64,000 nt of DNA from Bacillota bacterium (GCA_009784185.1 WRCD01000001.1:55255-119254), one strand, 5' to 3'; counted from the stretch's first letter, positions 10,128 through 59,573 are shown. Program-made: numbers and translations. Notes: generated by a model not told the origin, from the letters alone.

Positions 10128-10138
10128 AAACTGTTAAC

Positions 10139-21364: not shown

Positions 21365-21369
21365 TTTTA

Positions 21370-21398
21370 TTGACATCACACCCAAACTAAGTTATAAT
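21370..21398 (+). promoter_or_regulatory. Promoter TTGACA-17-TATAAT
   Basis: It has consensus hexamers and lies upstream of the DUF4097-like gene. Confidence 0.6.
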
Positions 21399-21427
21399 GA
21401 AAAAAATTGGTCTGTTGTGAGGTGAAT

Positions 21428-25357: not shown

Positions 25358-28300
25358 ATGAGTACATTAGCCAAAAAGGGGAACGCGTGGATAAAGAGAT
25401 TCACAGTGTTTGGTGTTGCCATTGCGCTTATGTGCTGCGGCTTTGCTGCGCTGGGTTTTAACCAGCAGCAATACGGCAAAGACGGCGGCGTTGTTTACGC
25501 GGCAAGCAACCAATCGGGACTGGACTTTGAAAACGCATTGGAAATTGGAACTGCGGCTCCTCTTCTTGTTGGCGGCGCAGGCAGAACAATGCTTGCAACG
25601 CAAAACAGATATGTGCGGCTTACCGCCGACATTAACATCAGCGGAAATGCCCCCTGGACTCCTATTCCGACTCTGGCAGCCGGAACGGTATTTGACGGCG
25701 GAATTTATGAGGTGGACAGCCAGGGCGATTTTGTTTATGATTCAACTACAAACGAACCTATTCTTCTTGGTAAGCGGAAAATTGTTGGCCTTACAAACAC
25801 AAGCAACACCAACAACATAGGGTTTGTGGCTAATCTTTTAGGAACCTTTAAGAACGTAGACTTTGAAAACGTAAACCTTGCCGGCACAGGCACAAACAGG
25901 GGCGTGGTTGCGGCAACCGTGCAAAACGGCAATCAGGCGGTTAACGCAAGAATAGAAAATGTGGGTGTGGTTAACGGAGCCGTAGGAGGCACAAATGCCG
26001 GCGGACTTGTCGGCTCGGTTGGTGTTTCAAACAGCGTTGCGGCCACAACTGTTCTTACAATTGACCAATGCTATAACATGGCGGCAATTGCGGCCGTTAA
26101 TGATGCCGGCGGACTTGTGGGCTCGTCACTAAGATGTACATTAACAATAACCAAAAGCTTCAACTCAGGCTCGGTTGTTTCGGCAAGCATTAACAACCGC
26201 CCTAACGTAGGCGGAATTTTGGGCCTGGGCGATGCAACTATCCTTAAAATGGAAAATGTGTATTGTACGGCACGTGTTGAGTGGCTTTCAAACGGGCAAG
26301 GTAATGTGGGCGGTATTATAGGAAACCTTCAAAATGCCGGTGCAACAACCTTAAATAATGTTGCCTTTGCCGGAACTCTTGGCGGAGGCGGCTCTGCCAT
26401 GCTTGGCGGTATTACAAACAATACAAGCAACGGTACGGGGCCTTTTAATATTACAAACTGCTATTATCCGCAAGGGCAAGGTACAAGCAATATAGGCGGT
26501 TCGGCAGCCGCTCAGCCAAGCCAGATGGAGAACGTTCTTGACGAAATTATGGCAATTATTGCGGGGAAACTTATCTTCTCGGTAGTTACGCCAACTTCTC
26601 TTCAGCAATCTCAAAATGGATATACTTTTACAACCAGCCACAGATTGTCGGTTTTGCAAAATTCTGTATATACCTTTACGGTAAGCCTGCTTGCTTCACA
26701 CAGCCAAGCAGCACCGGCCGTGTCAATTAAAATAGGACAAGGCTCAACAGAAACGTGGGCAGACCTGGTTGACCCGGTTCTGGGAGACCCCGCATTTGGT
26801 TCTGTATCGCCAAACCCGCTGGCTCACACTTCTAGCACAACGTCATATACATTTACTATAAACGATATATATGACAACATGGAAATTTTTGTAGGAACAT
26901 CCCGAAACACATACACTGTTTCAGCAGCACCGGCTGACGCTGGTGCTCAAGGAACCTTTGGCTTTACAAGCGGCTATTTTGGCGGAACAAGCGGAACGCC
27001 TGTCGTCCCGTCTTATCCTGCTGGGGTTACGGGAGCTTCGGTCAACCATGGAACAACCATCAACTTTCAGATTACAATGGCAACCGGATATACACAAATG
27101 GCTCCGTTTGTGCGATTCGGCTCAACAACAATTTCCGGAACCTTGGTTTCGGCCGGCGTATATAACTATTCGTATGTTGTAAACAGCAGTGCTGCAATTA
27201 CCATAACGCCTGTTTCAAACAACTACGCGGTTACAAGAAACCCTGCAGGCAATTATACAGGCTTTACTTTTAGTTCAATATCTCCCGAAACGGTTGGCAT
27301 AAACGGGAGCTACACTTTTACCTTGCAGGTTAATGAGGCTTACCGCAACGCAACCAGCCATGCACGCCTTTCAACAATTGGCGGTGCGGGCAACATTAAT
27401 ATTGCCAGAGTTGGAGCAACCGGAACGCTGGGTACTATGCTGGCAATTTCCAGCAATCAGGTAACGGGCGAATATGTATATTACATTATGAACATTAACT
27501 CCGATACTGTAATAAACTTCCCGACTCTGCAAATCAGCAGTTATACCATTGCACTGCCAAGCGGTCCTGAGTTTACCTCGGTTCCTATGCAGTTTACCAA
27601 CCCGCCGCTTAACACGATAGTGCGGACTTCGTACAACCACGGAGATATGTGTCAGTTTTCAATTACGGTGGCACCGGCATACCGCGGAACGGCACCGATT
27701 GTAATGCACGGCGGCACAGTTTTAACACCTACCTCGTCAAACGACATTTCCGGTGTGTACGGCTTTAACTTCCCGGTTACTCAGCAGGCGGCAATTACGG
27801 TAACCACGGGCAGCGTAAATACATTTGTGGTTACCCGCCCCAACTCAGGCACCGGATGGAACACCTCGTCGAGCGACCCCATTCATGTGGAATATGACGG
27901 CGAATACAACTTTATAGTTAACGTTGATGCAGGCTACCGTGGTGTTGCCGGTGCATGGAGGGCTCCAAGCATTATGCTGACAGACGGCACAGGTGCTCAG
28001 CTTATAGACAGCTCCGGGCAGCCGCTTAACCCGGGCACCAACGACGTTACACTTGTTTTAAACACTTTGCACCCCAGTTATTCTCCGGCAAACGGTGTGT
28101 ACACGTACCGGATTTTAGACATTCAAAGCAATATTACCATTCAGGTTTCGGCAAGCATAAACACGTATGCCGTAAACTTTCCCACAAGCGGAACAGGCTT
28201 TGTTTCGGTAGTTGCAACAACTCCTGTGGGCTTTGCCGGCACGGTTAACCACAACGGAAGCTTTAGCTTTACCGTAACATCGGATTTAGCAAACGGGTAT

Positions 28301-31300
28301 GGCCTGTTTGCTCCAACCGTAACAGTTAACGGCGGCGGCAATATTACTCCTGTAAGCGGCAACACAACAACAGGTGTTTACACTTATACAATTAACAACA
28401 TTACTGCAATCCAGAATATTTCAATTGCGGGCAACATTAACACGTATGCCGTAAACAGAGATAACAGCGGAGACGGCTGGACAGCATCTTCGGGCGCAAC
28501 GGGAGCAAGCTGGAACGGAGATTATGAGTTTACCGTAACGGTTGCACCGTCGCACAGGGGTGACTCGGTAAACGGCTGGAGAGCGCCTACCGTTACATTT
28601 ACAGGTACAGGCAGTTGTGACAACGGCGGAACCTTGGGGCTGCTGGAGTTTAACCCCGCGTTGTCTAATCAGTCAACCGGCGTTTATGTTTATAAAATAA
28701 CCGGCATTAAAAGCGCGATAGACATTTCAATTTCGGCTGATATAAACAAGTATACTGTTGTATTTGATGAAGACCCCAGAGACGGTGAGCCCGGTTTTGA
28801 GGGCAGCGGCTGGTTTACAGATGATGAAGATGACCTCGACTTCAGTCACGGCGGAAACTACATATTTGTAATTAATGTTGACGAGGGCTGGTATGGTGAC
28901 GCAGGTGCAAGAAGAGCTCCAACAGTTACATTTAAGGGCACGGCAAACGGTGTTACAAACGGCAGCGTTTCGGTTTTTGTCTCCGACCCGAGACATAACC
29001 CCGACGGCGGCGTGTTCGTTTTCAGGCTGGCAAGTATTACAACCGATATTGAGCTTTCGGTAACAGCCACAATCAACCAATACACGGTTTCAAGAACCGC
29101 TGACGGCACGGGCTTTTCGTCTGCTCCAAACGCAGGCTCGGCAAGCCCCGTTGACTGGAACGGCAGTTATGAGTTTACCGTAAATGTTGGCGCCAACTAC
29201 AGGGGTGACATAGTAAACGGCTGGAGAGCACCAAGCGTAACCCTTGCAAGCGGCACGGGCAGCCTGGTTCTGGACACCGGTCACTTAAACTATTTTCCGG
29301 AAAACGGTGTTTATACATACAAACTTACAGGAATTAAAAGCAATATCCAGATTAATATATCGGTTCAGCTTAACACCTACATTGTAGCGTTTGCAAACGG
29401 CAACGCGCTTACAGGTGACGGCTGGGCTGCAACTCCGGGCACAAGTCCGGTGTCACATGGCGGCAACTACACTTACACCGTTACTTTGGACGTATCTCAC
29501 AGAGGAGATGCCATAAACGGCTGGAGAGCGCCTACCGTAAGTGCCGGAACGCTTGTTCCGGGCTCAAGTGATGCAGCCGCAGGCGTATATGTTTACACAA
29601 TTACCGGTGTTACAACCAACGTTACTATTGCAATAAGCAACGTAACCAGAAACCAATATACCGTGGCGTTTGCAAACGGCAACGCGCTTACGGGTGACGG
29701 CTGGACTGCAACTCCGGGCGCAAGTCCGGTAGCACATGGCGGCAACTATACCTTTACCGTAACACTTGACGTATCTCACAGAGGCGACTCGGTAAACGGC
29801 TGGAGAGCGCCTACCGTAAGTGCCGGAACGCTTGTTCCGGGCGAGAGTGATGCAACCATAGGTGTATATGTTTACACAATTACGGGAGTTACAGGCAATA
29901 CTACAATAACAGTAAGCAACGTAACCAGAAACCAATACAGCGTTACCCTGCCTTCAAGCAGAGTAGGGTATTCTTTTGCGGGCATAACCGAACCGGCATC
30001 AGTAGGACATGGCCAGGCATTCTCTTTCCAGATTCTGGTTTCACCAAGCCACCACACACCGGTTGTTACAATTAAAGGTGGCAGCACGGTTCCCGGAACC
30101 TTTATTACCGACAGATTCTATTTCTCTGTCAGCAATGTTCAGGCAAACTTTGAACTAGAGGTTTTGGTTACTCCATATATATACACGGTAACCCTGCCTT
30201 CAGGGCAGAATGCAGTTGGATTTACTGCAGATAAAGACACGCTTGCATCAAGTGTGGTTCTTTACCATTATCAAAACAGCACAACTCCGGATACAAAATA
30301 TTACTTTGCAATTTCACTCCTTGCTTCTCACTCCGGCATATCGTCGGTGAGTGTTAGTGCGGGCACAGCCACACTTACACCGCTTGGCGAAACCAGCCCG
30401 GGAAGCGGAGTTTTTAGATACGAACTTTCAGAATTTAGAGGTACGGTTGAAGGCATTGTAATTTCTGCAACCGCAACCATTAAAACATATAATGTTTCGT
30501 TTAACGGCGGACTTAGCGCAGCCGGCTGGGAAGTAACAAGCGCGGTCAGCCCAACAACCAACTCGGTTGACTACGGCAGCGAATTCAGATTCTTTGCTAA
30601 TGTAAACACCGGCTATAATACTCTTGTTGTAGAGTACACAATGGCAGGCGGAGCAACACAGACAGCAAGCCGTGTAGGCTCAACCAACGAATATTATATC
30701 TCCAACATAACCGGCAATGTTGTAATTACAATCAGTTCAACAATCAACAGTTACAACGTGTCGGTTGCGGGCGGCAATCTAACCCCGGCCGGCTGGACAG
30801 TTTCGGGCGGAGATATTGTAAGCCCAACAACCAACCCGGTTAACTACAACCTGCCGTTCAGCTTTGATGCGCAATTAAACACCGGCTACCACACTCTTTC
30901 CGTTACTTACACAATGGGCGGAGTGTCTATGGGCGCATTAACAGCGGCGTCGGGAACGGACACCTTTACTATTCCGCACGTAACAGGCAACATTGTTATT
31001 ACGGTAAGCTCAATTCTTCACACATACACAATCACGGCAAGCGCGGTTGGCAACGGAAACATAAGCCCAAGCGGCACCGCAACAATCAATTACGGCAGCA
31101 ACAGTTCAACCTACACATTTACGCCAAACACTGGATATGAGGTTGTTGGCATTATTATCAACAAAGGCCTTCCAAGCCAGGTAATACTTGACGGAACCAC
31201 AAACCCGACACTTGCTGCGGCCATTGCAAGCGGCTATCGGTTTATGGGCGTAACGGCAAACTTTACAATTGAAGTAACGTTTGCAATACGGACCTTTACA

Positions 31301-34300
31301 TTAACAGTTACGCAAACCGCCAACGGAACCATTGAATTTGACAGCGCCACGGCTGTTACAAGGTCGTTTGACTATGGTTCAACACCAAAATACGACATTG
31401 TTCCGGCAACGGGTTATGGTATTGACAAAATTATAATCGGCGGAACGGAGCTGTCCGGCATTGCATTAACAAATGCTATTGCGGCAGGCTCATACACTTT
31501 TGCCGCAATCACAGCAGCAACCAGCATTGAAGTAACATTTAAAAAGATTGTGTTTACAATTGAGGCAAGCGCAGGCAGCAACGGAAGCATTACGCCAAGC
31601 GGTTATGTAAGCGTAAACCACGGCGAAAATGAGTCATTTACTTTTAACCCGTCAACAGGATATAGAGTTGTTGGGGTTGAAATAGACGGAACTGCCTTAA
31701 CAAGCACCGCGCTTGAGGATGTTATTAATGCTAACGGCTACACTTTTACCAACGTAACGGGTGACGGACATTCTATTCATGTAACATTTACAATCATACA
31801 ATATACAGTTACGGCAAGCGCAGGCGGCAACGGAAACATAAGCCCAAGCGGTGCGGCAACAATCAATCATGGCAGCAACAGTGCAGTTTACACGTTTGCG
31901 CCCGCAACCGGCTACTATGTTGAAAGCATTGTTATTGACGGAACAACCATCTACACAAGTGCAGACCCGGAATTTGCAGGCTTTGTTGCAAGCGGTTATC
32001 AGTTTGTGGGCGTAACGGGACAGCGTACGATTCATGTAACCTTTGCAATATACACTTACGACATTACGGTTACTGCAACCGGCAACGGAACGGTTGAACC
32101 AACAGCCGGCACATTGAGCGGCGGCAAGCTGACAGTAAACTACGGTGCTACGCCAACCTTTACAATAACTCCTGCTGCAAACCACCACATTGTAAGCATA
32201 ACAGTTGGCGGAGCAATAGTAGCTAATGCCAACTCATACACATTTACAGCAGTTACTGCAAACACCAGCATTGCGGTTGTGTTTGCAATTGACGCATATA
32301 CAGTAAGTTTTGTAACAACTAATGCGGTACATAGGCCGGCCTCCAGTTGGGTATCTTACACCATTGCGCCAACAACCATAGACCACGGAGCAGTATGGAC
32401 AGTGCCAAGCTTAGCAGGCGTGCGCCATGTAAGCACGTTTGCAAATGCAATCGGATTTACAGTAACAAGCGGACCAAATACGGGAGCAACCGTATACACT
32501 CCCGGCCAGACTATAACTATAACGGGAACGACAACAATAACAATCGTGTTTGACACAGGCACGTCGTGGTCTGTTACGCTTGACGAGGGCGACAGCAACA
32601 TCAGGACTAATTTCATAACCGGACAGCTGGCCACCGACAACCTGCCGGATGCGCCAAACTACAGCAAAGCCAACCATGATTTCCTTGGTTGGAGTTTAAC
32701 GTACATCAGCCCGAGTGCTGCAGCAGCGCTTGACGCAACGGGTCTTGCGGCATTGATAGCCGGAGGAACCAGTGTTAACGCAGACAACGCAAACGGCAAG
32801 ACCTATTACGCAGTATGGCGCGGAACGGCGCAGGCAGTGACGTTTAAAGACCATGACGGAACGACATTAGGAACAGACAGTATATACTATAATGAAAGCA
32901 TAGCGGCATTAACGCCGCCTGCTGCCGGCGCATGGAATTGGGACGACAGAGAATACTATTACACATTCAAAGGCTGGAGTACAAGCCAGCAGGTATATTG
33001 GACAACCGGCAACGTGGACAACGCAAGCTGGAACGAAGGGGTGCTAAGCTTCCCGCAGACTATAACGGGAGCAACCAACTATTACGCAGTATACACAAGA
33101 GCAATTAAGTATTATACTGTTACATGGATAAGTGATAACAACGCAACAACTACACAAAGCACGTACAGATACGATGATGTAATAAGCATTCCGGGCTATA
33201 CAGCCCCATCCAACACTGCTACATGGACATATACCTTTGTTGGCTGGAGAATAACTGTGCAGACCGACTTTGACACCGATACCGGCGGCACTGTTGCGCT
33301 TACCGGAACCAAGGTAACGGCAGATGCAACCTATTATGCTATATTCAGCAGGGCAGCAACCTTGCACACCATCAACTGGTACAACTTTGACGGAACCCTA
33401 ATAAAGAGTGACAGCCTTGCAAACGGGTTAAGTTTAACATTGCCAACTTTAGGAGCAGGCGGCTTTAACGCGCCATCCAACACCGTGGCATTGTCATACA
33501 CGTTTAAAGGCTGGAGCCACACCAACACCGGACATAATGGCGCAACAATTGCAACACCAACGGTTGTTGAGGCATCACTCCCCGGCACCGGCGGGCAAAC
33601 CATAAATTACTATGCAATATTCAATCAGTTTGCAACACCATATGTTGTAACCTTTGTTACAACCAATGCAGTGGAGTTGGTTAGCGGCAACTGGGAGCCA
33701 TATACTGTTGACACAAGCAACAGTGCTACATACTCGTTCTATGGCGGTGTGTGGACCGTGCCTGACTTAACCGGCATACGCCATGCAACCACATACGCGG
33801 ATGCAATCGGATTTAGAATTACCAGCGGAACCGGTTCGGGCTCAACTGTGTACTCATTTGGTGACGCAATCAACTTTGCAATAACCATACAAAGCGCAAC
33901 CACAATTACAATTGTGTTTGCTGCAGGCACGTCATGGTCAATTACACTTGACGAGGGCGACAGCAACATCAGGACTAATTTCATAACCGGACAGCTGGCC
34001 ACCGGCGACTTACCGGCAGCGCCAAACTACAGCAAAGCCAACCATGATTTCCTTGGCTGGAGTTTAACCATGTACACGCCAAGCCAGGCGGCAGCACTCA
34101 GCGGGCAGACCCTGCAGGATATTGAAGACACCAAAACAGGAAGCTACAGCGTAACTGCAGACAGTCCTACAGGCTTAACCTATTACGCTGTTTGGAGAGG
34201 AACGGCGCAGACTGTTACGTTCAACGAATGGAGAGGAGCGTCTGCAACTCAGATAACAACGCAGCAAATCTTCTACAACGAGAGCGTATCGTTTGGCGGC

Positions 34301-44704: not shown

Positions 44705-44719
44705 GGGGAGGGTTGAATT

Positions 44720-46921: not shown

Positions 46922-46985
46922 TTAAAACAGTAATCCCTCAGTGTTGTGCTGAGGGTTATTGTTGAAGTACTAAAGGGGATAGGGT

Positions 46986-52900: not shown

Positions 52901-54389
52901 AACCGAAACGCTTCTTACGCTTTACAATGTGCCTTACGGTCATCCTACATGGTATTATAATGCAGGAATTTTTACCAAGACAGGCTATGCCTTTAACGGG
53001 CTGGCGTTTAGCGGAGGCTCGGTGTTTATAACTCCTACCGGCTTTATAGAAATAGGAGAAAGCTATTTTGATACGTTTGATGCCGTAAAGATGCTTGTTG
53101 CAAAACATACACCCATTAAACCGGAGCTGATTGGTCTTAGCAAAGAGCAGGTAGTTTATAAGCAGGCCGAGAACATAACCATTCTGTTTTCGGGTGTTAA
53201 TGTGGTATTTAATGTAAGCAGCGTATTGAACGGCACAGTTTCTATAAACCCGCAAGGAGTCTTAAGCATAACCGCAACAGGAAAGCCGGGAGTAGACACG
53301 GTATCGTTTACGGTAACTGCCACGCATACGGACGACAGCAATGTGTTTGATACCAAAACGTATGAAGTGATTATAAACAAAAGCGCAATCAGCATAGAGA
53401 GTTACAGCACTGCTTTTGTTTACACAGGGCTTAATCAGCAGGCAGATGTGGCTTATACCCTTGCCGGAGTAGATGCCGGCGACAATGTTAAGGCATTGTC
53501 CGGTCTTACGTTCAAGCAAAACAACGTTATAGTTCCGTTTGTTAACGCCGGCACGTATACGGTAGAATTTGTGCTGGCCGCAGCCTGGGCAGCGTATTAT
53601 CAAACAGATGAAAGCTGTGTGTTTAATATAATTATCAGCCCTGCCATACTTACTGTTACCGGAAATAGTTTAGAAAAGATTTATTTTACGGACAATCCGG
53701 ACGAATCATTGTTTGAAAGCATTGTTGCCGGCTTTGTTAACGGTGAGGACATAAATATTGTAGTAAACTACTCAACGTTCTGCACAAAACTAAGCGGGGT
53801 TGGCAAATACATAATATATCAGCTTGCCGAACCGGTGCCGAACTATGACTTTAAATACGAAAACGGTTACATTGAGGTAAAGCCGGTTGCGCTTGTTAAC
53901 GCCGCAATTGAACTGCAGACGGGGGCCGGCGGGTATGTTGAAGGCGGAAAACTGTTTTTTAACTTAGAAGACATTTCTTTTGGAGCTGACGGCGAATTTA
54001 CGGTAAATGATTTTACTATCGTCTGGGAATACACCTCAACACTTGGCGGAAGCTGGACAAGGCTAAACAACGAGCATGATAGTCAGCTGATATTAACAAG
54101 CTATAAGCTTGGAATAGATGTTGCAGGCTTGTTTTTTAGGGTGCGCATTGAAGGTGCGGGTAACATAGCGTCCGATTCAAACGCCGCGTCTTTGGTAACG
54201 CAAGACAGCAGGATAGCCGCTGCACCGTCGGCACCGCTTATGCCGCTTAATGTGCTTGTTACTGTTTTGGCACTGTTTGGGCTTGGCGCAGCAATCGGCT
54301 CTGCTATACTCATTATATGCTTAAGGCATAAGCGCTTAATTGCCCGGATTAATTTGCAAAATGAATATCTGGGAGGGGCAAGAAGATGA
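46986..54389 (+). CDS. Large (2467 aa) surface protein: two GLUG-type regions, Gly/Asn-rich tract, Listeria-Bacteroides repeats, MBG-like modules, C-terminal TM
   Basis: It has an AAAGGGG SD and a signal peptide. AGGI(A/V)G motifs occur twice (about aa 130-300 and about aa 800-1250). There are many ..GY.F.GW......LYAVW units. MBG-like segments are present (YTGLNQQADV.., ..NYDFKYENGYIEVKP). The C-terminus has a TM helix followed by RHKR. Confidence 0.85.
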   Translation: MNKRVFISSYKRLGLVVALIMIAGSFMFLINAGKSIDRASAFDGTPVAFVDGTDGTGVLGDPYIITKEGHLVYLSENYNRLGAKQHYRLGANLDLDGFVFTPIANDNANAFKGEFDGAGFVISNFVMSGSSNAGGLFGYIDGGKVFDVNIINFNAEQIYTPGSLAGGIAGEALNAEITNCTVSSSRLTAYNSAGGIAGSAHSTVVEDCKVFASFISAQKSAGGIVGEITGSGSVVNSCLSQNNNILAETYILLAGVDSAAGGIAAISNGTAISDCRSRDNNIFSQRYTAGLVAVALGTTITSSYNTSTVKGYDGVSFAGVYSLNGANGIDGIAALNGADGKAGAAGANGTRGGSAGGIVCVIDYESVITDTFNAGMIIAGSGGGGGNGGSGGGGGNSGKDGSDNYLANGGSGGSGGGGGNGGNGGSAGAIYVFYLNNSSVPVNIAGIITNTFTRAGMVNLDLINGNGGSAGFGGFAGGFGYGLVNGSSGQNGLNGIPGDSGTIEKLTGEEFQPHLVFNYNGGNVGVATKPVDYNSAFGTLPVPVYDGWKFVGWQNEYGSFVNGNTLFLALDKIELTAIYEKLYVINAHLNNGSGVSGTVFEANDFVAEGLPVPVRAGWAFDGWYLDSAFGTPLSATATAISLEASPTVYAKWLQEIRINFNITEFGSIINNEPASVLNNFNAAAPNQLYVIRVSGRPLGALPVARPNILNSQYYFGGWYENISNTSTLVAATTVYNHASLTNGQITLTSRWNTNAFLEYNLMGADDIDECSTAWDGGDEIYAGGTGTEQNPFQIANARQLRQLALHVNNRTAISPGNFYFDKHFILTNNIDLGTVHLWEPIGNGSVVGGLVRRFEGSFHGNGFYVKNLNIQYNSSTAIAAGSRIYLGLFGAALNAKITQVGIESGSITFNATGTGNIAERTHIYVGSVIGRCAGATLIQECYSNVDINVNVNRTAATLGVSAFVGGMVGRLDNGTSEGNVSSDNWGIQTAGSSFINSYFSGSIESLFNYNSGRVHNFVGGIVGYVYLSNFANVFNTGNINIRTVQTQSAGSTIAFAGGICGEINSGGNLANTFNTGTVSAHGQAAGGDRRVEVGGIVAHLNDSAGRITINGCKNTGALYLTRVGSTTSRNTTPEVNYEGDGLGGIIGLIVGTAGVTGINNQYVQNTMFFRTTASGSWTQYRNVGIDYYNNGSARTRPANTSNGAGGQYNGNHLIVGNNNLVAHGHAGNHEAFAFANNTDFFVSSSYFVVPSAVTNPTIAAPNVGRWNFSTVWEFRLDRNDNLPLLKYMSYLTEYKSGVLTPNRKYVYNGERVGRLITPLRTGYLFEGWWNYPVEFDPEVGGLAYNSIAAVNGQNGFIRYAGKTATSLTDTNSTVFVGLDNIQIYAGWMPILSNITFTVTLKGLSADDSISVYRGYAMGQLYDPVRPGYEFLGWFDSGNIRYYNTTVYALSTDLILTARWQANTYSIEFNAAGGFVSVGIIHVEYDSTLELLPIPYLFGHKFLGWKTAGGSTVKDGDIYKFDGNIVVAAEWELNTYQVIFDSNPASVAGTIAGVMTPQVFDFYTGPQDEQNLKTNAFSVTGYIFMGWALTPGINSNVVYLDGVSFKMDTEGDVTLYAVWRAETFFVRMDTRGGWVSNPGTLIREGAAGQRVSLPTPTKTGYDFAKWHTLVGGVETLVGNSIIISGNIDVYAKWDEITYTVSYNKNPGSGSTAVVGTDPTPGSIQTPGSLPLNYSAYSRTGYTFVGWALEPGGPLIYKKETNDMLHTTGLPAAYAGSNTLVLYAVWEPNVFILEFFSNAEAIDRVADVDVMASQSFSFDQPKNLFANQFAIIGLEFKGWATTSVLAKAGTVEFVNSELFGAFTTVNKLYAVWGNRTYVLEFRSGSQFLGTTISAEFDLDEQTDIILPGEISFPPSFFRQRNDFMGWALTASAAEGISKMPVGIQAAAMANGNRITLFAVWEPTKYTIVIKDETETETLLTLYNVPYGHPTWYYNAGIFTKTGYAFNGLAFSGGSVFITPTGFIEIGESYFDTFDAVKMLVAKHTPIKPELIGLSKEQVVYKQAENITILFSGVNVVFNVSSVLNGTVSINPQGVLSITATGKPGVDTVSFTVTATHTDDSNVFDTKTYEVIINKSAISIESYSTAFVYTGLNQQADVAYTLAGVDAGDNVKALSGLTFKQNNVIVPFVNAGTYTVEFVLAAAWAAYYQTDESCVFNIIISPAILTVTGNSLEKIYFTDNPDESLFESIVAGFVNGEDINIVVNYSTFCTKLSGVGKYIIYQLAEPVPNYDFKYENGYIEVKPVALVNAAIELQTGAGGYVEGGKLFFNLEDISFGADGEFTVNDFTIVWEYTSTLGGSWTRLNNEHDSQLILTSYKLGIDVAGLFFRVRIEGAGNIASDSNAASLVTQDSRIAAAPSAPLMPLNVLVTVLALFGLGAAIGSAILIICLRHKRLIARINLQNEYLGGARR

Positions 54390-57300
54390 AAAAATTATTT
54401 GTTATCTTAGCCTGTTTTGTGTTTTCTGTGTCGGTGTTTGCTTTTGCGCTGTATCCCAACATGAAGTCGGAGCGCGTTACGGCCGGCAACTGGAACGACG
54501 GTATTGATATAAATACCTACGTCTTTACAGGCGGCGGCTCTGGTGATAGTGCGTTGGACCCGTATATAATAACCGATGCAAGTGACTTAGCTTACATGAG
54601 CAAACAGGCGGCCGAAAATGCGTCTATTTTAAACTATAAATTCTATGAGCTGGCAAATGATATACTTAACTTGGATGTTCATTATTTTACACCGATTGGT
54701 TCCGGCAACGAAAACAACAAAATTTATAATATAAGTTTTAACGGAAACGGTTATACGCTGGACGGACTAACTATAGACATCGGTTCGGATTATAACGGTC
54801 TGTTTGGGTTTTTGGCGGATTCGGACATCTACAATTTAAACCTGACAGGAGTCAGCATAGTTGATACTGCTTCCGGCGGAATGTATACCGGCGCAGTTGC
54901 CGGATATGCACAGGGAAGCACCTTTACCGACATAAATACAAGCGGAACAATAACCGTAACAAACAACTATGCCGGAGGCATGGTGGGAGCACTTGGCGGT
55001 GCTGAAAGCGGTTTTGTTGGGTGCATAAGCAACGTGAATGTTACGTCAACTACCGGAAGTTATACGGGAGGTATTTTTGGTGCTGCGTATTCGGGTACGG
55101 TAACGTTAAGCGGATGCAGAAACTATGGTAATATAAGCGGTAATGAATATGTAGCGGGCATTGGTTCGGGCTATAGCACAACCAGCGCAACGTTTATTCT
55201 TGATAGTTGCGTAAACACAGGAGTTGTTAAAAGCCTTACGTTTAACGAAAGCTATTTTGCCGGGCTGATTGCATACGCAAGCAGCAGCTTAAATAATGTA
55301 ATGAATTTTTGCTCTAACACCGGAAAAATTGATGCAACCAACTCCAACTATGTAGCGGGGCTGGTTGCGTTTGGAAAATTCAGTATTAAAGACTGCTTTA
55401 ACAATGCAGGCGTTGACGGCAGAAATTTTGTTGCGGGCATTGCGGCATACGGCACGTTTGATGTTGACGGCAGCTATAACGGTGTAAGCGGCAATATATC
55501 TGCAAGCGGTTCGTCGGCAGATACCGTGGCGGGCGGAATTGTTGGCCGAATGGCCGGCCCGGGCAGCATAAAGCTGAGTTACAACAAGGGGGCGGTCAGC
55601 GTTAGCGGAAACGGAACGCCGGCAGGGTTGCTGGGCAGTTTTGACGCGGCAGGTGCGCCTGCTAATATGTTTGTAATAGAAAACTGCTATAACTGGGGTG
55701 AGGCCGGTAATGCTTTTATCGGCGCTTCAAGCCAGTCTGTTACTGTTGTTAATTGCTATAATATGTCCGGCTCGTCGGTGGCGGCTGGTGCAAATATTAT
55801 AAACTCACTTATAGTCAACGGCGGCAGTGCAGGTTCAATTTTTAACAATTTGTCGGCTTACAGCCCGTCCGGCTGGGGGCTGGATACGCAGCAGAGTTTC
55901 TTTAACGGAACAACTTACGTAAATTACAACAACGGACTCCCATATATACGCTCCGGGCTGGTCAGCGCCTTATATATTGATTTACAGGGCGGAGAAGCAA
56001 CGGGAGCCTTTAAAGGATTTTACCTGCAGGATTACTTAGGGCAGACACAGGTGCTCTTTACTGATTTTAAGAAACTGGGTTACAGTTTTGTTGGATTTAA
56101 CGTGCCAATGCCGTTTGTGCACAAATTACAGGCAGAGGTTTTGTATTGTCAATATGCGTTAACCGATTATGCAATTGAAGTGGATGTAGACGCCGGCAGT
56201 GTAAGTGAAGGCACCGTTGGATTGTATAAGTGGGTTGGCGGTACGCTAACCTTAACCGCCGATCCGGAGGACTTTTATGCCAATCTGGAAACTAATATGG
56301 TTATAAAGGCAGAACAGATTTCGCAGTTAAGCAACAAATTTGCTTATTGGGCGGTTGAGTTTGATGCCGTGCTGTACCAGGTTTCCAACCAAGCCGAGCT
56401 TAATTTAGGCAGTATATTTAATATGAGCTTTTTAGCTGCTTTTGAGGAGCATCTGCTTGCCTTGCCGGCAGGCGCTGCCGACTTTAGATTTGTTGCGGTG
56501 TTTGAGGAATCCTGGGAGATAGAGGTAGATATTGCTACACAACACAAAAACTGGGGAGACCTGACTATAACCGTTGGCGGAAATACACACGGTTTCAATT
56601 TTGATAATACATTCAGGGTTCCGGTTACACATACGGCAATAAACCTTACACTTACACCAAAAGAATATTACAAAACATCGTCGTTTTCGATAGAAAAGGT
56701 AAATGATGCTTCGGGGCAGACCCTTATAGAACCATATACCTTAAACGAGTTTGAGCCCACCAGCATTAACATACAACTGAAAAGCGACCTTAAGCTTTCA
56801 ATCAGTTTTGCCGTAACAATTTATAATTTCAGCATTAGTTCGGTTTATGAGGATTTTACCGATACGCCGGACAACCTGATAGAGTTGTACGGGAACGTAT
56901 ATCCATTTTATATTGACCAATTTATTAATCCTGCCGTTCAGAGTGGGATTTCCGCTAAAGCGGGAGATATTGAAGCCTACAGGTTTTTAGGTTTTAAGTT
57001 TAAGTATGCCATTGGCGGCGGGTACAGCAATTATGTGGATTTGTACGCCCCGGGTGTGATGGGGGCAGTTGATGTAGATGCCGGATTTTTAAAAGACTAC
57101 TTTGTTAGCGGAGCCCAATATTACAACGGCGGAACAGTTTATATAGTTGCGGTATACAAACAGCAGTATCAGTTAAATGTGGAGTTTAACGACCACGAAT
57201 TAGGCAGTCTTGATGTGCGGATAAACACAAGCAGTATTTTAGACTACAACGGCAGATATTTTGACGAGGGCTCGGATATTAAAATATTTATTATAATTTA

Positions 57301-58555
57301 CGACAATTGCAGATTGGACAGTATTACTATAAACGCAGCTGCGGCCGCACAGGTAGACTTACCCTTAGAGACCGGCTTAAATATTTTAATCCGTCTTGCC
57401 AAGATACGGTATTATCTGGAGCTGTATACTATAGATTACGACAATATTAAAATCGATACCGAAGGCAATCTGGAGGCTATAGATTTTAAATCTGACCTGT
57501 TTGGTGAGTATCTGGAATATGATGACAATTTTGTTATATACAACTATCAATCTTTGGAAATGCGCAACAACATGATGTTTGTTGCGTGGTATTACAGGCT
57601 GGCGGGCGGTGCGCTTGTGCCGATTACGGCAGATGAGGATGACAACATAAACAGTATTATTACAAAAGGAATTATTAATCAGGTTAAGTGGACAGGTTCC
57701 GGCGGCCGGGAATACATAACCATTGTTGCAAAAATAGTTAACATTTTTGTGTTGGATGTGCACCTGTCTATAACTCAAAGCTTACGCGGGGACTATATTG
57801 TTGCAGTATATGATGAGGGACTGAATGATTTTGTAATTGTTGACAAGGATGACACAGAGTTTGCAATGGGCGCAACGGTGCGTATAACGGCCGTATCAAA
57901 CAACTATTTCAGTTTTGCTTATTTTGAAGACAGCCAGGGCAATAAGCTTGCTGCAGATAGTTCCAATCCGTTTGCACTCACATTTGTTTTGAGCGGAAAC
58001 CAATTTATTTCGGTCTATTTTGACCCGGACGATTTTTACTTTGCTTTAGGGCCGGGTGACATTTCTCCCAACGGAGAGGTGATGTATCTAATCAATTCCA
58101 AGGCAGCCGAGATAGGGCAAATGCAGACCGTAAAGATAGGCGATACAATTATTGTATCCTTTGAGCCGGGGGCAAATTATCAGGTTAGTGAATTTACAAT
58201 AAACGGAAAAACTTTAATTCAGCTGAGAGACGATTACGGTGCCCAAATAGCAGGAAATTCACTTATAATAAGAGTTAATGCGGATTTCCTGGACTGGATT
58301 TCGGGCAATCAGGGGCTGATTAGCGCCAACATATCAACAGCCATAAGCACATTGTATATAATACTGCTTGCCTCAATTGCCGTGCTGGTGCCGGGAATGG
58401 TGCTTGCCGCAACCATAATAATGGTATACAACCAGCGCAAGAAGGCTGCGGCGCTTGTGGTTAAAGCAAGGCAGGCAAAAACCAAGGGCGGACACGACTT
58501 TAGAGACATGATGGATAAGATAGGCGAAGAAAAGCGAAAGGAGATTAACAAATGA
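54386..58555 (+). CDS. Large (1389 aa) surface protein: GLUG-type head, degenerate beta modules, C-terminal TM plus conserved tail
   Basis: Its ATG overlaps the upstream stop (ATGA). It has a signal peptide and head motifs GLFGFL, YTGAVAGYA, YAGGMVGAL and YTGGIFGAA. The C-terminal module is ..VSFEPGANYQVSEFTINGK.. followed by a TM helix and NQRKKAA. Confidence 0.8.
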   Translation: MKKLFVILACFVFSVSVFAFALYPNMKSERVTAGNWNDGIDINTYVFTGGGSGDSALDPYIITDASDLAYMSKQAAENASILNYKFYELANDILNLDVHYFTPIGSGNENNKIYNISFNGNGYTLDGLTIDIGSDYNGLFGFLADSDIYNLNLTGVSIVDTASGGMYTGAVAGYAQGSTFTDINTSGTITVTNNYAGGMVGALGGAESGFVGCISNVNVTSTTGSYTGGIFGAAYSGTVTLSGCRNYGNISGNEYVAGIGSGYSTTSATFILDSCVNTGVVKSLTFNESYFAGLIAYASSSLNNVMNFCSNTGKIDATNSNYVAGLVAFGKFSIKDCFNNAGVDGRNFVAGIAAYGTFDVDGSYNGVSGNISASGSSADTVAGGIVGRMAGPGSIKLSYNKGAVSVSGNGTPAGLLGSFDAAGAPANMFVIENCYNWGEAGNAFIGASSQSVTVVNCYNMSGSSVAAGANIINSLIVNGGSAGSIFNNLSAYSPSGWGLDTQQSFFNGTTYVNYNNGLPYIRSGLVSALYIDLQGGEATGAFKGFYLQDYLGQTQVLFTDFKKLGYSFVGFNVPMPFVHKLQAEVLYCQYALTDYAIEVDVDAGSVSEGTVGLYKWVGGTLTLTADPEDFYANLETNMVIKAEQISQLSNKFAYWAVEFDAVLYQVSNQAELNLGSIFNMSFLAAFEEHLLALPAGAADFRFVAVFEESWEIEVDIATQHKNWGDLTITVGGNTHGFNFDNTFRVPVTHTAINLTLTPKEYYKTSSFSIEKVNDASGQTLIEPYTLNEFEPTSINIQLKSDLKLSISFAVTIYNFSISSVYEDFTDTPDNLIELYGNVYPFYIDQFINPAVQSGISAKAGDIEAYRFLGFKFKYAIGGGYSNYVDLYAPGVMGAVDVDAGFLKDYFVSGAQYYNGGTVYIVAVYKQQYQLNVEFNDHELGSLDVRINTSSILDYNGRYFDEGSDIKIFIIIYDNCRLDSITINAAAAAQVDLPLETGLNILIRLAKIRYYLELYTIDYDNIKIDTEGNLEAIDFKSDLFGEYLEYDDNFVIYNYQSLEMRNNMMFVAWYYRLAGGALVPITADEDDNINSIITKGIINQVKWTGSGGREYITIVAKIVNIFVLDVHLSITQSLRGDYIVAVYDEGLNDFVIVDKDDTEFAMGATVRITAVSNNYFSFAYFEDSQGNKLAADSSNPFALTFVLSGNQFISVYFDPDDFYFALGPGDISPNGEVMYLINSKAAEIGQMQTVKIGDTIIVSFEPGANYQVSEFTINGKTLIQLRDDYGAQIAGNSLIIRVNADFLDWISGNQGLISANISTAISTLYIILLASIAVLVPGMVLAATIIMVYNQRKKAAALVVKARQAKTKGGHDFRDMMDKIGEEKRKEINK

Positions 58556-59541
58556 GAGCTATAATTGTTTCCTGTCTTATGCTTGCTATGTGCCTGTGTG
58601 TTGCAATATGTTTTGGATACAGCGGCCACGGTGTTGTAAAAGTTTCGGCTGCTTATGAGCCGGAAAACAATGCAGTTCCGGCTGCTGCCGCGCCAAGAAG
58701 CGCAGGGTTTGGCGCATTTGGCGTATGCTCGGTTTATGTTACTATCCCGGGCGAATACAATGGCATGGGCAGTTTCGCGGTTTTTGCGGTTGATACCGAC
58801 CCTGATACAGAAGAGAAAATTTTAACCGGAATAACGCCGGAAGAGAGCAGCAGATATGAGTTCCCGGCCGGGACTTTAATTGAAATTCATGCACTGCCTA
58901 ATCCGTTTCATGAGTTTGTTGACTTTAAACAAAACTTTAAAAGCGAACGTGCGTCACATGAAATATTAAGTGTTGAAGTAAGGTCGGACAGAGAATTCTT
59001 TTTGCTGTTTAAAAAGAAAAACTATATCATTAACGAAGGAATTATCTCCAGCGGCGTGGTGCTTAGTACAAACCAGTTTAAATTGGGTGATGAAATTTAT
59101 GTGTCATTAACCCTGGACTCCATGTTTGAAGTAAAGGACTTTAAAATAAACGGAATTTCGGTTAATCATCCAAACTACACCGGAGAAATAAAGTTTGCAA
59201 ACAACATTGCAACCATTATTATTACCGAGGACTGGCTGGGCGGTTATCTGAGCAATTTGGATGTTGTTGTAACAACCAAACTAAACGATATGTTTTTGAT
59301 TGCCTTAATAACCGCGTCAACCTCAATTCCGCTTTTAATATTGCTTACTGTGTTTTTGCTGGCAATTGGTAAAAGGCAGCGCAAGGCAGCAAGGCACGCA
59401 TTGCAGGTTAAGCAGGTATACGCGTTCCAGACAGATACCGGCTCGTTTATTAAGGGGCTTAAAGACGGAAGTTTTACCGGACAGTTTACGGATAAAGACA
59501 TAAAAGCAGAGCTAAAGAGCCAGAGCAAAGACCCGATGTAA
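58552..59541 (+). CDS. Small (329 aa) member of the same anchored family: signal peptide, one or two beta modules, TM and conserved tail
   Basis: Its ATG overlaps the upstream stop (ATGA). It has a signal peptide and a C-terminal TM followed by KRQRKAA...GSFIKGLKDG. Confidence 0.75.
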   Translation: MRAIIVSCLMLAMCLCVAICFGYSGHGVVKVSAAYEPENNAVPAAAAPRSAGFGAFGVCSVYVTIPGEYNGMGSFAVFAVDTDPDTEEKILTGITPEESSRYEFPAGTLIEIHALPNPFHEFVDFKQNFKSERASHEILSVEVRSDREFFLLFKKKNYIINEGIISSGVVLSTNQFKLGDEIYVSLTLDSMFEVKDFKINGISVNHPNYTGEIKFANNIATIIITEDWLGGYLSNLDVVVTTKLNDMFLIALITASTSIPLLILLTVFLLAIGKRQRKAARHALQVKQVYAFQTDTGSFIKGLKDGSFTGQFTDKDIKAELKSQSKDPM

Positions 59542-59544: not shown

Positions 59545-59573
59545 TTGACAATCTTTTTTGATAGGCGTATAAT
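59545..59573 (+). promoter_or_regulatory. Lipoprotein gene promoter TTGACA-17-TATAAT
   Basis: It has consensus hexamers and starts immediately after the end of the operon. Confidence 0.6.

What the first reader, a model, noticed from the sequence alone, without database searches (positions are those of the whole stretch)
25358..59541. 34-kb five-gene operon encoding 11,366 aa of modular surface proteins without a sortase signal
Five co-directional genes (6448, 733, 2467, 1389 and 329 aa) are separated by 15 nt, 64 nt, and two 4-nt ATGA overlaps. The overlaps imply co-transcription and translational coupling of the last three genes. All five products have an N-terminal signal peptide or anchor and a single C-terminal TM helix. 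Three of them (1, 3 and 4) begin with GLUG-type heads, meaning repeated xxGG(I/L)(V/A)G beta-helix-like motifs; protein 3 has two such regions. The bodies are long arrays of Listeria-Bacteroides-type repeats (..GY.F.GW...(Y/L)YA(V/I)W), SAGxNGxISPxG InlB-B-like modules, and MBG-like modules. Unclassified beta modules of about 100 aa are also present. I found no LPXTG, no choline-binding, SLH or LysM modules, and no dedicated secretion genes in the window. The arrangement (three large headed proteins plus two small headless ones with the same anchor) suggests a multi-component surface fibre or adhesin layer rather than independent adhesins.
Basis: partly seen in the sequence, partly recalled or inferred. 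Interest (0 to 1): 0.65.

Follow-up and report, generated by a model that had tools for sequence, protein, structure and literature searches.

The report
Paired membrane-anchored giant surface proteins
A termite-gut Clostridia bacterium carries five adjacent genes for very large cell-surface proteins; they are two separate conserved cassettes, built around an unannotated membrane-anchor module that always occurs as a short-tailed gene followed by a long-tailed gene, which suggests two-protein surface fibres.

Summary
An independent assembly of the same sequencing run matches them base for base.

The interpretation needs revision. This is not one conserved five-gene operon. It is two independently conserved cassettes side by side: a pair (g1+g2) and a triple (g3+g4+g5). 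A stable hairpin with a U-rich tail separates them.

g1, g2, g4 and g5 share a C-terminal module of about 270 aa that Pfam and NCBIfam do not recognise. It consists of two beta-sandwich domains, a TM helix with a conserved proline, a basic patch and a conserved cytoplasmic tail.

A profile of this module finds a family of 'hypothetical proteins' in Christensenellales-like Clostridia. The family splits into clade A (short tail) and clade B (long tail, NTGxFIxDLREGKxVGQVTDEDVK). In all 15 loci with readable gene order, an A gene is followed directly by a B gene, and A and B sub-clades co-diversify.

g3 has a different conserved anchor. Heads are non-catalytic beta-helices homologous to the IgA1-protease N-domain. 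g1 is a chain of about 60 beta modules.

Best reading: Sec-exported, type-I-anchored A/B hetero-complexes that form long adhesive fibrils. This is inferred, not shown. In some relatives the pairs lie next to a conserved actin-like protein.

The parts
25358..44704 (+). g1, 6448 aa. Giant clade-A (short-tail) protein and first gene of cassette 1.
   Evidence: ORF. Clade A in the NJ tree. Relatives of 2231+ to 3158 aa are each followed by a B gene of 509-768 aa.
25358..25504 (+). g1 signal peptide or signal anchor, aa 1-49 (hydrophobic 14-35, then VYA/AS).
   Evidence: Kyte-Doolittle scan and sequence. No signal-peptide predictor was available.
25505..26557 (+). g1 GLUG-type beta-helix head, aa about 50-400.
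   Evidence: BLAST of g1 144-383 to g4 122-449. GG[IL][VA]G motifs at aa 215, 251 and 318. Included as a row in head alignment A4, whose profile hits IgA1 protease. A weak ZmpA hit.
26561..32680 (+). g1 array 1: about 22 tandem beta modules of about 90 aa, InlB B-repeat / Flg_new_2-like (aa 402-2441).
   Evidence: Autocorrelation peak at lag 93, z = 8.4. Iterated HMM hits. Weak Pfam Flg_new_2, 4 stretches.
32300..37000 (+). g1 super-repeat: 4 units of about 455 aa (1338-1395 nt, 60-91% DNA identity), each holding Listeria-Bacteroides-like F.GW...YYAVW modules.
   Evidence: Repeat families D1, D4, D8, D10, D11, D13, D16 and D19. HMM hits spaced about 455 aa apart. F.GW motifs at roughly 90-aa spacing.
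37376..41809 (+). g1 array 2: about 18 tandem modules of about 85 aa carrying the SAGSNGxIxPxG motif (aa 4007-5484).
   Evidence: (family D2).
41687..42157 (+). The only Pfam matches in g1: Flg_new_2 above its cut-off and Flg_new at the cut-off (aa 5444-5600).
   Evidence: Flg_new_2 scores 25.9-28.4 bits against a cut-off of 23.6. Flg_new scores 25.3-27.8 against 27.
43928..44701 (+). g1 C-terminal anchor module, type A. Two beta domains, TM (aa 6388-6412), NRKKK, and a short tail ending QQFIKDLQSGKWD.
   Evidence: Alignments. Profile search. Tree.
44720..46921 (+). g2, 733 aa. Headless clade-B (long-tail) partner and second gene of cassette 1.
   Evidence: Clade-B relatives of 721-768 aa (P0025, P0036, P0043) and of 509 aa (P0106) directly follow giant A genes.
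46091..46918 (+). g2 anchor module, type B. TM with PSIAIP, NMKRKR, and tail NTAGFISDLKAGNIAS-TDAQVKKGMKDK.
46935..46955 (+). Hairpin followed by UUAUUGUUG in the 64-nt g2-g3 gap. A likely (partial) intrinsic terminator between the two cassettes.
   Evidence: 9-bp stem, 5 GC pairs. (dG -21.8 kcal/mol, z -3.87, 0 of 200 shuffles as stable).
46986..54389 (+). g3, 2467 aa. Third component type ('C'), with two beta-helix heads, a Gly-rich tract, Flg_new repeats, MBG_2 and its own anchor.
   Evidence: Pfam. BLAST. 43.7% identical and colinear with the 2423-aa protein of L094.
48111..48281 (+). 9-nt-periodic GGC-rich tract encoding GGSGGGGGNGG... (g3 aa about 376-432). A possible length-variable or assembly-uncertain spot.
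   Evidence: Repeat family D6. Contig breaks and depths of 2.7-18.9 against 10.7. Spurious scFv-linker hits.
54228..54386 (+). g3 TM helix (aa 2415-2447) and short tail RHKRLIARINLQNEYLGGARR. The anchor is conserved in g3-like proteins and unrelated to the A/B module.
   Evidence: The A1 HMM gives no significant match, and the motif is conserved in L081, L083 and L094.
54386..58555 (+). g4, 1389 aa. Clade-A protein with a beta-helix head; middle gene of cassette 2. Its start overlaps the g3 stop (ATGA).
   Evidence: Orthologues P0021, P0026 and P0065 sit between a g3-like and a g5-like gene.
54473..56005 (+). g4 head, a right-handed parallel beta-helix (aa 30-540).
   Evidence: AF2 model with pLDDT 84 and pTM 0.85. 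Profile hit to IgA1 protease 7uvk residues 1088-1291, E = 1e-10. Foldseek best hits 3n6z, 7jgj and 6xjb. No HExxH.
57728..58552 (+). g4 anchor module, type A.
58552..59541 (+). g5, 329 aa. Minimal clade-B protein: signal peptide, anchor module and long tail. Its start overlaps the g4 stop (ATGA).
   Evidence: orthologues at 35-42% identity. AF2 model with two beta-sandwiches, a TM helix and cytoplasmic helices. Tree.
59545..59573 (+). Perfect sigma-70 consensus promoter (TTGACA-17-TATAAT) just after g5. It marks the next gene, a lipoprotein at 59600-60145, as a separate unit.
   Evidence: The lipoprotein gene has no homologue near related loci.

Best explanation
The region encodes two adjacent cassettes of one undescribed family of surface proteins, found in Christensenellales-like gut Clostridia.

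**Proposed topology and architecture**
- Each protein is exported by a Sec-type signal peptide.
- It stays in the cytoplasmic membrane through a single C-terminal TM helix (type I topology).
- It projects a chain of small beta modules, and g1, g3 and g4 are tipped by a non-catalytic GLUG/IgA1-protease-type beta-helix head.

**The family's defining part**
The defining part is a C-terminal module of about 270 aa. It has two membrane-proximal beta-sandwich domains, a TM helix with a conserved (I/V)P, a basic stop-transfer patch and a conserved cytoplasmic helix (F-I-x-D-L-x-x-G). It exists in two ancient forms:
- A: tail of about 31-47 aa.
- B: tail of about 51-67 aa that adds VGQVTDEDVKxxMKxKKK.

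The two forms are always encoded as A then B.

**Proposed mechanism**
I propose that the A and B modules pair with each other, ectodomain base to ectodomain base and TM to TM, to give a heteromeric stalk.
- In cassette 1, the 6448-aa g1 (A, about 60 modules, possibly 200 nm or more if extended) is the fibre. The 733-aa g2 (B) is its base or anchor partner.
- In cassette 2, g4 (A) pairs with the minimal g5 (B). g3 has its own conserved anchor and joins as a third component.

The likely role is adhesion to particles, polysaccharide or other cells in the termite gut.

**Shown versus inferred**
- Shown: the ORFs, domain homologies, the A/B split, the conserved gene order and the independence of the cassettes.
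- Inferred: export, topology, physical A-B pairing and adhesion.
For: - **ORFs and coupling signals.**
- **Shared module.** It is present in g1, g2, g4 and g5 but not g3.
- **Not curated.** No Pfam or NCBIfam model matches the module. Relatives are named 'hypothetical protein'.
- **Family size.** The profile search finds 2347 cluster representatives. Of the top 150, 73 carry the full module at the extreme C-terminus.
- **Conserved TM and tails.** The TM and tail motifs fall into two tail types.
- **A/B clades.** An NJ tree built without the tail columns still separates the clades. All 13 proteins known to be first genes are in clade A. All 12 known to be second genes are in clade B.
- **Gene order.** A is directly followed by B in 13 independent loci plus the 2 here.
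- **Co-diversification.** g1-like A genes pair with g2-like B genes, and g4-like A genes pair with g5-like B genes.
- **Stand-alone cassettes.** A triple occurs alone in L094. Pairs occur alone in L085, L097 and L099.
- **g5 model.** Two beta domains, a long TM helix and cytoplasmic helices.
- **Head.** A beta-helix homologous to the IgA1-protease N-domain, with no HExxH.
- **Cytoplasmic role of the B tail.** Some B tails carry an extra conserved cytoplasmic domain. This argues that the tail has a cytoplasmic function.
Against: - There is no direct evidence that A and B touch. No complex prediction, co-variation analysis or proteomics was possible.
- Conserved A-then-B order could reflect an ancient tandem duplication kept only for co-expression.
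- Three long-tailed proteins fall in clade A and two short-tailed ones fall in clade B.
- The g5 model has only moderate confidence (pLDDT 66.6), and its fold matches are generic.
- No RNA data exist for co-transcription.
- Signal-peptide cleavage was not predicted with a dedicated tool.
- An adhesion target is pure inference. Beta-helix heads of this fold class also occur in polysaccharide lyases.
Confidence: 0.55

Rival explanations
1. The genes are independent tandem-paralogous adhesins. Each protein works alone as a membrane-anchored adhesin. The A-then-B order is a frozen relic of an old tandem duplication that is retained for co-regulation, with no physical complex.
For: - All have their own signal peptide and TM anchor.
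- In some sub-families both A and B carry heads and are similar in length, for example 1267 and 1264 aa in L091.
- Tail type and clade do not match perfectly.
Against: - The order and adjacency are kept in 15 of 15 readable loci, despite only about 20-45% identity and changing neighbourhoods.
- A and B sub-clades co-diversify.
- g5-type B proteins are little more than the anchor module. They have no plausible binding ectodomain of their own.
- Conserved residues inside the TM helix suggest helix-helix packing.
Confidence: 0.25
2. The C-terminal module is a sorting or processing signal. The TM and tail are recognised by an unidentified processing enzyme, analogous to a sortase or exosortase. 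The ectodomain would then be cleaved and attached to the wall, or released, so the TM helix is not the final anchor.
For: - The juxtamembrane motif (V-x-T-x-M-N in A, T-G-L-x-T-G in B) and the TM are conserved.
- The layout of signature motif, TM and basic patch superficially resembles known C-terminal sorting signals.
Against: - The tails are 31-67 aa or longer, with conserved helices and sometimes an added domain. Known sorting signals end a few basic residues after the TM; this comparison rests on my general knowledge.
- No LPXTG or similar motif is present.
- No candidate processing enzyme lies in the window or is conserved next to related loci.
Confidence: 0.08
3. The proteins form a structural cell-envelope coat or spacer, S-layer-like, rather than adhesins. 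They would form a canopy or brush that shapes or protects the envelope, anchored by TM stalks as in two-component archaeal S-layers.
For: - The family is chromosomal and origin-proximal here.
- At least one MAG carries more than one family locus: L089 and L093, both from CALNBM01.
- There is a weak fold match to SlaA/SlaB (E = 6e-3).
- No SLH or other wall-binding modules are present.
Against: - Extreme length variation between orthologous A proteins (2231+ to 6448 aa) and rapid module expansion are typical of adhesins or fibrils under diversifying pressure, not lattice-forming proteins. This step is inference.
- Head domains resemble ligand-binding or -cleaving beta-helices.
- The SlaAB match has low TM-score (0.17).
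Confidence: 0.12
4. The giant ORF is an assembly artefact, with mis-joined or mis-counted repeats, so the true gene is shorter, longer or broken.
For: - Only short-read data from one run exist.
- The middle of g1 breaks into many short unitigs, and one low-depth unitig joins 31602 to 40241.
- The Gly tract in g3 has odd depths.
Against: - The reading frame stays open over 19.3 kb.
- Independent contigs match with zero differences.
- Repeats are at most 91% identical.
- The alternative joint is supported by only 21 nt on one side, at depth 4.8.
- g3 is colinear with a 2423-aa orthologue from another sample.
Confidence: 0.04

Closest known systems
Streptococcal IgA1 protease / ZmpA family (Peptidase M26; PDB 7uvk, 7jgj, 6xjb) and the Bacteroides 'putative IgA1 protease' 3n6z
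   Same: The heads of g1, g3 and g4 are homologous to the GLUG-containing right-handed beta-helix N-domain. The profile E-value is 1e-10 and Foldseek probability is 1.0. A related protein carries a weak Peptidase_M26_N hit.
   Different: There is no M26 catalytic domain and no HExxH anywhere. The body and anchor are different, and there is no LPXTG.
Listeria internalin B-repeat / Listeria-Bacteroides repeat proteins (Pfam Flg_new, Flg_new_2) and MBG-domain adhesins
   Same: The same small beta modules build the stalks. g3 passes the Flg_new and MBG_2 cut-offs, and g1 passes Flg_new_2. The beta part of the anchor module also hits repeat arrays in many unrelated surface proteins.
   Different: There are no LRR, GW, LPXTG or T9SS sorting domains. 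Most g1 modules fall below Pfam thresholds. The TM-plus-tail module and the A/B pairing are not features of those families.
Giant C-terminally TM-anchored Gram-positive adhesins such as Staphylococcus aureus Ebh (from my own knowledge, not tested here)
   Same: A very long rod of tandem modules, an N-terminal signal peptide, one C-terminal TM helix and a basic cytoplasmic stretch, with no sortase motif.
   Different: Ebh is a single gene with alpha-helical repeats. It has no paralogous partner gene and no homologous anchor module.
Two-component, TM-stalk-anchored surface assemblies (Sulfolobus SlaA/SlaB, PDB 8qox) and, by analogy only, integrin alpha/beta heterodimers and the Mycoplasma mobile Gli123/Gli349/Gli521 operon (the latter two from my own knowledge)
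   Same: These are co-encoded large surface proteins that act as a complex anchored by TM helices. For integrins and the Gli proteins, short cytoplasmic parts couple to internal filaments. This parallels the A/B tails and the nearby actin-like gene in some relatives.
   Different: There is no sequence homology. The SlaAB fold match is weak. In SlaAB only one partner has a TM. Coupling to a cytoskeleton is unproven here, and no actin-like gene lies in the window.
Sortase-assembled pilins (BcpA, SpaD, RrgB, EbpB)
   Same: There is a weak fold resemblance to the two beta-sandwich domains of the anchor module (best E = 7.5e-4, TM about 0.18).
   Different: There is no LPXTG, pilin motif or sortase gene. 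The TM-scores are too low to claim the same fold family.

Membership tests
Sortase (LPXTG) substrates | C-terminal LPXTG-like motif followed by a TM segment and a short basic tail | tested here: not met
   The regex scan finds only an internal LPGTG at g1 aa 2741. None lies near any C-terminus. Tails are 31-56 aa.
Pfam Glug (PF07581) / GLUG beta-helix heads | Match to the Glug motif model above its gathering score | tested here: inconclusive
   g3 scores 18.7 bits against a cut-off of 20.5. g1 and g4 have no hit.
Pfam Glug (PF07581) / GLUG beta-helix heads | Right-handed beta-helix homologous to the GLUG-bearing N-domain of IgA1 proteases | tested here: met
   The profile of 12 heads hits 7uvk/7uvl at E = 1e-10. 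The AF2 model has pLDDT 84. Foldseek top hits are 3n6z, 7jgj and 6xjb.
Peptidase M26 (IgA1 protease / Zmp) | Catalytic zinc-metalloprotease domain with HExxH | tested here: not met
   There is no HExxH in any of the five proteins and no Peptidase_M26_C hit.
Listeria-Bacteroides repeat (Flg_new, PF09479 / TIGR02543) | Score above the curated cut-off | tested here: met
   g3 scores 156.2 bits (cut-off 27) with 6 stretches, and TIGR02543 scores 65.4. g1 is borderline at 25.3-27.8 bits. g2, g4 and g5 have none.
Divergent InlB B-repeat (Flg_new_2, PF18998) | Score above the curated cut-off | tested here: met
   g1 scores 25.9-28.4 bits against 23.6. g3 scores 21.2, below the cut-off. A self-built HMM finds 43 such modules in g1.
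MBG domain (MBG_2, PF18676) | Score above the curated cut-off | tested here: met
   Only g3, aa 2222-2294, at 32.3 bits against 25. The same domain is present in the g3 orthologue of L094.
Single five-gene operon | Short or overlapping junctions on one strand | tested here: met
   Gaps of 15 and 64 nt and two ATGA overlaps.
Single five-gene operon | No terminator between the genes, and one transcript | tested here: inconclusive
   A strong hairpin with a U-rich tail lies in the g2-g3 gap. No consensus promoter fits the roughly 30 nt before g3. No RNA runs hold the sequence.
Single five-gene operon | Five-gene order conserved in relatives | tested here: not met
   The pair and the triple occur separately, flanked by unrelated genes: L085, L094, L097, L099.
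Proposed A/B paired-anchor family (defined here) | Full module of about 270 aa at the extreme C-terminus (two beta domains, TM with a conserved IP, basic patch, FIxDLxxG helix) | tested here: met
   g1, g2, g4 and g5 score 336-398 bits against the profile, which was built from these same four sequences. 69 further proteins among the top 150 have the same layout. g3 does not match.
Proposed A/B paired-anchor family (defined here) | An A-type (short-tail) gene immediately followed by a B-type (long-tail) gene | tested here: met
   g1 then g2, and g4 then g5. Thirteen other loci show the same order, with no counter-example among loci where both neighbours are readable.
Proposed A/B paired-anchor family (defined here) | Physical A-B heteromer | not testable with these tools
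   No multimer prediction is available. There are too few paired sequences for co-variation analysis. No proteomic data exist.

The most novel reading that the evidence does not exclude
The A/B pairs may be integrin-like transmembrane heterodimers. Their conserved cytoplasmic tails, especially the long B tail, would dock onto a conserved chromosomal actin-like filament system. That would couple long surface fibrils to an internal cytoskeleton for positioning, force transmission or surface motility.

**Evidence pointing this way**
- In three termite-gut MAGs, the actin-like gene, its partner of about 240 aa, the A gene and the B gene form one tightly packed gene string, with a 4-nt overlap into the A gene.
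- In 7 of 11 ALP loci with adequate flanks, A/B genes lie within about 4 kb, in varying arrangements.
- Some B tails carry an extra conserved cytoplasmic domain.

**Limit**
No actin-like gene lies in this 64-kb window, so the link is untested for this organism.
Probability: 0.12. Interest if true: 0.9.

Novelty: new variant of a known kind. Interest (0 to 1): 0.55.

Why it matters
Christensenellales-like Clostridia are widespread gut bacteria, and little is known about their cell surface. This locus exposes a sizeable family that no curated library covers. It has at least 73 clusters at 50% identity among the best 150 hits, all named 'hypothetical'.

The family's organising principle is a conserved two-gene, two-anchor-type arrangement with conserved TM and cytoplasmic tails. 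If A and B do form a heteromer, this would be a distinct way for monoderm bacteria to mount very long fibrils on the membrane without sortase.

The conserved cytoplasmic tails would give a handle for asking what they connect to inside the cell. In practical terms, the module can be turned into a profile to annotate these proteins, and g5-type proteins offer a minimal construct for structural work.

Tried and rejected
- **Word-indexed homologue searches.** Searches with g5 and with its alignment found almost nothing: only the query itself and one protein on a 1.3-kb contig. The exhaustive profile search was needed.
- **GTDB scans.** Scans with g2 and with the g5 alignment confirmed no relatives. 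The pattern choice was too narrow.
- **Self-iterated searches.** Searches seeded with single Pfam-positive repeats did not spread. Seeding with eight in-register 93-aa units did.
- **PDB sequence searches.** g4's head alone gave nothing. g3's N-terminus hit only GGGGS linkers of scFv constructs, a low-complexity artefact.
- **Foldseek on the g5 model.** It gave only generic Ig/pilin-like matches at TM about 0.18, and I do not use these for classification.
- **Downstream genes as system members.** I considered the downstream lipoprotein (59600-60145), the 218-aa protein (60242-60898) and YfhO (61131-63710) as part of the system. I rejected this because the lipoprotein gene has its own perfect promoter and none of the three recurs at related loci.
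- **Mobile-element origin.** I rejected this for the window. The context is origin-proximal housekeeping genes (mnmE, mnmG, parAB, dnaB and aminoacyl-tRNA synthetases).
- **Literature.** Three literature searches found nothing on this family.

Full report
**Observation**

All are on the + strand, none has an internal stop, and together they total 11,366 aa. The junctions are 15 nt, 64 nt and two ATGA overlaps, and each start follows a strong Shine-Dalgarno sequence.

A Kyte-Doolittle scan gives one N-terminal and one C-terminal hydrophobic segment per protein. No LPXTG lies near any C-terminus; the only match is an internal LPGTG in g1.

**Source and assembly**

The window is chromosomal and origin-proximal. 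Upstream are mnmE, mnmG, parA, parB, dnaB and several aminoacyl-tRNA synthetases. MnmG is at best 61% identical to Christensenellales/Clostridia gut MAGs.

The sequence occurs in one public run, from a termite gut metagenome. Logan's independent contigs of that run match the whole 25-60.5 kb stretch with no differences.

The middle of g1 falls into short unitigs with depth up to about 2x. This fits the internal DNA repeats, which are at most 91% identical over about 230 nt, rather than a collapse. One low-depth unitig joins 31602 to 40241 with only 21 nt of support on one side.

The one place where length may be uncertain is a 9-nt-periodic Gly-codon tract in g3 (48111-48281). No long reads were available.

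**Domain content**

Curated libraries see little.
- g3 has six Flg_new repeats (156 bits) and one MBG_2. Flg_new_2 and Glug fall just below their cut-offs.
- g1 has only one Flg_new_2 and one borderline Flg_new near aa 5444-5600, even when it is cut into ten pieces.
- g2, g4 and g5 have no Pfam or NCBIfam hit.

Even so, g1 is modular throughout.
- Autocorrelation peaks at 91-93 aa, with z = 8.4 for aa 801-1800.
- An HMM seeded with eight in-register units finds 43 modules in two arrays, aa 402-2441 and 4007-5484.
- Between these arrays lie four super-repeats of about 455 aa. They carry F.GW...YYAVW motifs at about 90-aa spacing.

**Heads**

g3 11-599, g3 774-1213, g4 2-611 and g1 144-383 are homologous. 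A profile of twelve heads hits the beta-helix domain of IgA1 protease (7uvk residues 1088-1291) at E = 1e-10.

The AF2 model of the g4 head is a right-handed beta-helix with pLDDT 84 and pTM 0.85. Its best fold matches are 3n6z and the IgA1 proteases, followed by lyases, tailspikes and adhesins.

None of the five proteins has HExxH. The heads are therefore the non-catalytic part of that family.

**The anchor module**

BLAST and alignment show that g1, g2, g4 and g5 share their last 260-280 aa, and that g3 does not.

A profile of these four, searched against 1.84 billion cluster representatives, gave 2347 hits. In the top 150 they fall into two groups:
- 73 proteins have the whole module at the very C-terminus.
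- 77 match only through the beta-repeat part. Many of these look like unrelated repeat-rich surface proteins with other C-terminal ends.

The 73 range from 235 to 3158 aa, with g1 an outlier at 6448. The members looked up are all named 'hypothetical protein'.

Their C-termini align as follows:
1. GNtLtIxVTxxWL
2. a juxtamembrane V-x-T-x-m-n motif
3. a TM helix with a conserved (I/V)P, which reads PSxxIP in many
4. NxKKKK
5. about 15-20 aa
6. F-I-x-D-L-R/K-x-G

After that the protein either ends (short tail) or continues with VGQVTDEDVKxxMKxxKKKK (long tail). The AF2 model of g5 (pLDDT 66.6) shows two beta-sandwich domains, one long helix through the membrane and two short cytoplasmic helices.

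**A/B pairs**

An NJ tree built from the module without the tail columns still splits into two clades. One holds short tails (31-47 aa) and the other long tails (51-67 aa). There are five exceptions.

Gene order could be read in 13 loci from other samples and MAGs: L081-L086, L090-L094, L097 and L099. Further pairs appeared in L101, L102 and L110. In every case an A gene is directly followed by a B gene on the same strand, with a gap of up to about 125 nt (under about 30 nt in most loci) or an overlap.

All 13 known first genes fall in clade A and all 12 known second genes in clade B. Sub-clades co-diversify:
- g1-like giants pair with g2-like proteins of 509-768 aa.
- g4-like proteins pair with g5-like proteins of 341-439 aa.
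- Other sub-families pair 1267 with 1264 aa, or about 2170 with about 1630 aa.

In the window, g1 is A and g2 is B, and g4 is A and g5 is B.

**g3 and the cassettes**

g3 is 43.7% identical and colinear over its whole length with a 2423-aa protein in L094. Its own C-terminus is conserved in L081, L083 and L094 (AGYVEGGKLYFN...NQLILTSY...GLYFRV, then TM, then RHKRLIxRxN). The A/B profile does not match it.

In L094 the g3-like, g4-like and g5-like genes form a stand-alone triple between opposite-strand genes. In L085, L097 and L099 a g1-like and a g2-like gene form a stand-alone pair.

So the five-gene order is not conserved, but the 2-gene and 3-gene units are. Within the window the two units are separated by a hairpin (dG -21.8 kcal/mol, z -3.9) with a U-rich tail. 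This is probably a partial terminator, because there is no room for a consensus promoter before g3.

A perfect sigma-70 promoter follows g5 and precedes the lipoprotein gene at 59600. That gene, the next one and YfhO do not recur at related loci.

**Mechanism**

I propose the following.
- The proteins are exported by Sec and held in the membrane by the C-terminal helix.
- The A and B modules pair at the membrane to give a heteromeric base.
- The A protein supplies the long stalk and head. In g1 that is about 60 modules, on the order of 200 nm if each adds 3-4 nm, which is my own estimate.
- In these two sub-families the B protein supplies a short base and the longer cytoplasmic tail.
- g3 is a third, separately anchored component of the second cassette.
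- Adhesion is the most likely role, given the head fold and the fast-evolving, expandable stalks.

Pairing, topology and function are all inferences.

The main rival is that these are independent tandem paralogues kept together only for co-expression. Lesser rivals are a cleaved sorting signal, a structural coat and an assembly artefact.

**Actin-like neighbour**

Near the pairs in L091-L093 lies an actin-like protein (ALP_N plus MreB-like_C) with a partner of about 240 aa.

A scan for this ALP in GTDB genomes found 16 loci at 57-88% identity. Of the 11 with adequate flanks, 7 have A/B genes within about 4 kb:
- in-operon upstream in three termite-gut MAGs;
- the pair a few kb upstream of the ALP in three others;
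- one A gene on the opposite strand in one.

Some B tails also carry an added conserved cytoplasmic domain. No ALP lies in this window.

This motivates the high-novelty reading that the tails couple the fibrils to an internal filament. Shared ancestry of the MAGs, or an ordinary partition system, could also explain the linkage.

**Novelty**

The building blocks are known: GLUG beta-helix, B-repeats, Flg_new and MBG. The kind is also known, namely giant TM-anchored Gram-positive surface proteins.

The conserved A/B anchor module, its cytoplasmic tails and the strict paired gene order are not covered by Pfam, NCBIfam or the literature I could search. I rate it a new variant of a known kind, with interest 0.55.

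Noticed in passing
L091:968-2817; L092:12221-14052; L093:12594-14399; L100-L102 (ALP at 10001-11044, pair from about 11700): A highly conserved actin-like protein (ALP_N + MreB-like_C) with a partner of about 240 aa lies next to A/B pairs in several Christensenellales-like MAGs. In three termite-gut MAGs it sits in the same gene string, with a 4-nt overlap into the A gene. None is present in the window.
   Followed up: partly
P0111, P0069, P0054, P0077 (last ~130 aa); L099:17927-19858: Some B-type proteins extend the long tail with a Pro/Ala/Lys-rich linker and a conserved C-terminal domain of about 60 aa (…TLQKDGxIxDxxGxxFAxAxLxxGxIxDxxxxVIGxVxGxGxI). I could not identify this domain.
   Followed up: no
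L090:6499-7167; L092:10445-11077; L093:10660-11277: A conserved protein of about 205-222 aa (42-53% identity, no Pfam hit) directly follows the B gene in one sub-family. It is not similar to the lipoprotein that follows g5 in the window.
   Followed up: partly
window 48111-48281: A 9-nt-periodic GGC-rich tract encodes GGSGGGGGNGG runs in g3, between the first head and the Flg_new repeats. Independent contigs break here with depths of 2.7-18.9 against 10.7. This suggests length heterogeneity or strain variation.
   Followed up: partly
window 19403-22936: The alanyl-tRNA synthetase ORF is only 653 aa (catalytic and SAD domains). It is followed by a separate 509-aa ORF with a weak LiaG-like match rather than the usual AlaRS C-terminal part.
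   Followed up: no
window 61131-63710: A YfhO-family membrane protein (231 bits) lies about 1.6 kb downstream of the cassettes. It is not conserved near related loci, so it is probably unrelated.
   Followed up: partly
window 10253-12668: A UvrD-like helicase with a weak STAND-NTPase-like N-part is followed by a 23S rRNA-intervening-sequence protein homologue. This could be a small defence or mobile island within an otherwise housekeeping context.
   Followed up: no
window 26000-40000: GC skew on the coding strand drops to about zero or negative across g1, whereas it is positive elsewhere on the + strand. This probably reflects the Thr/Ser/Asn/Gly-rich repeat composition.
   Followed up: no
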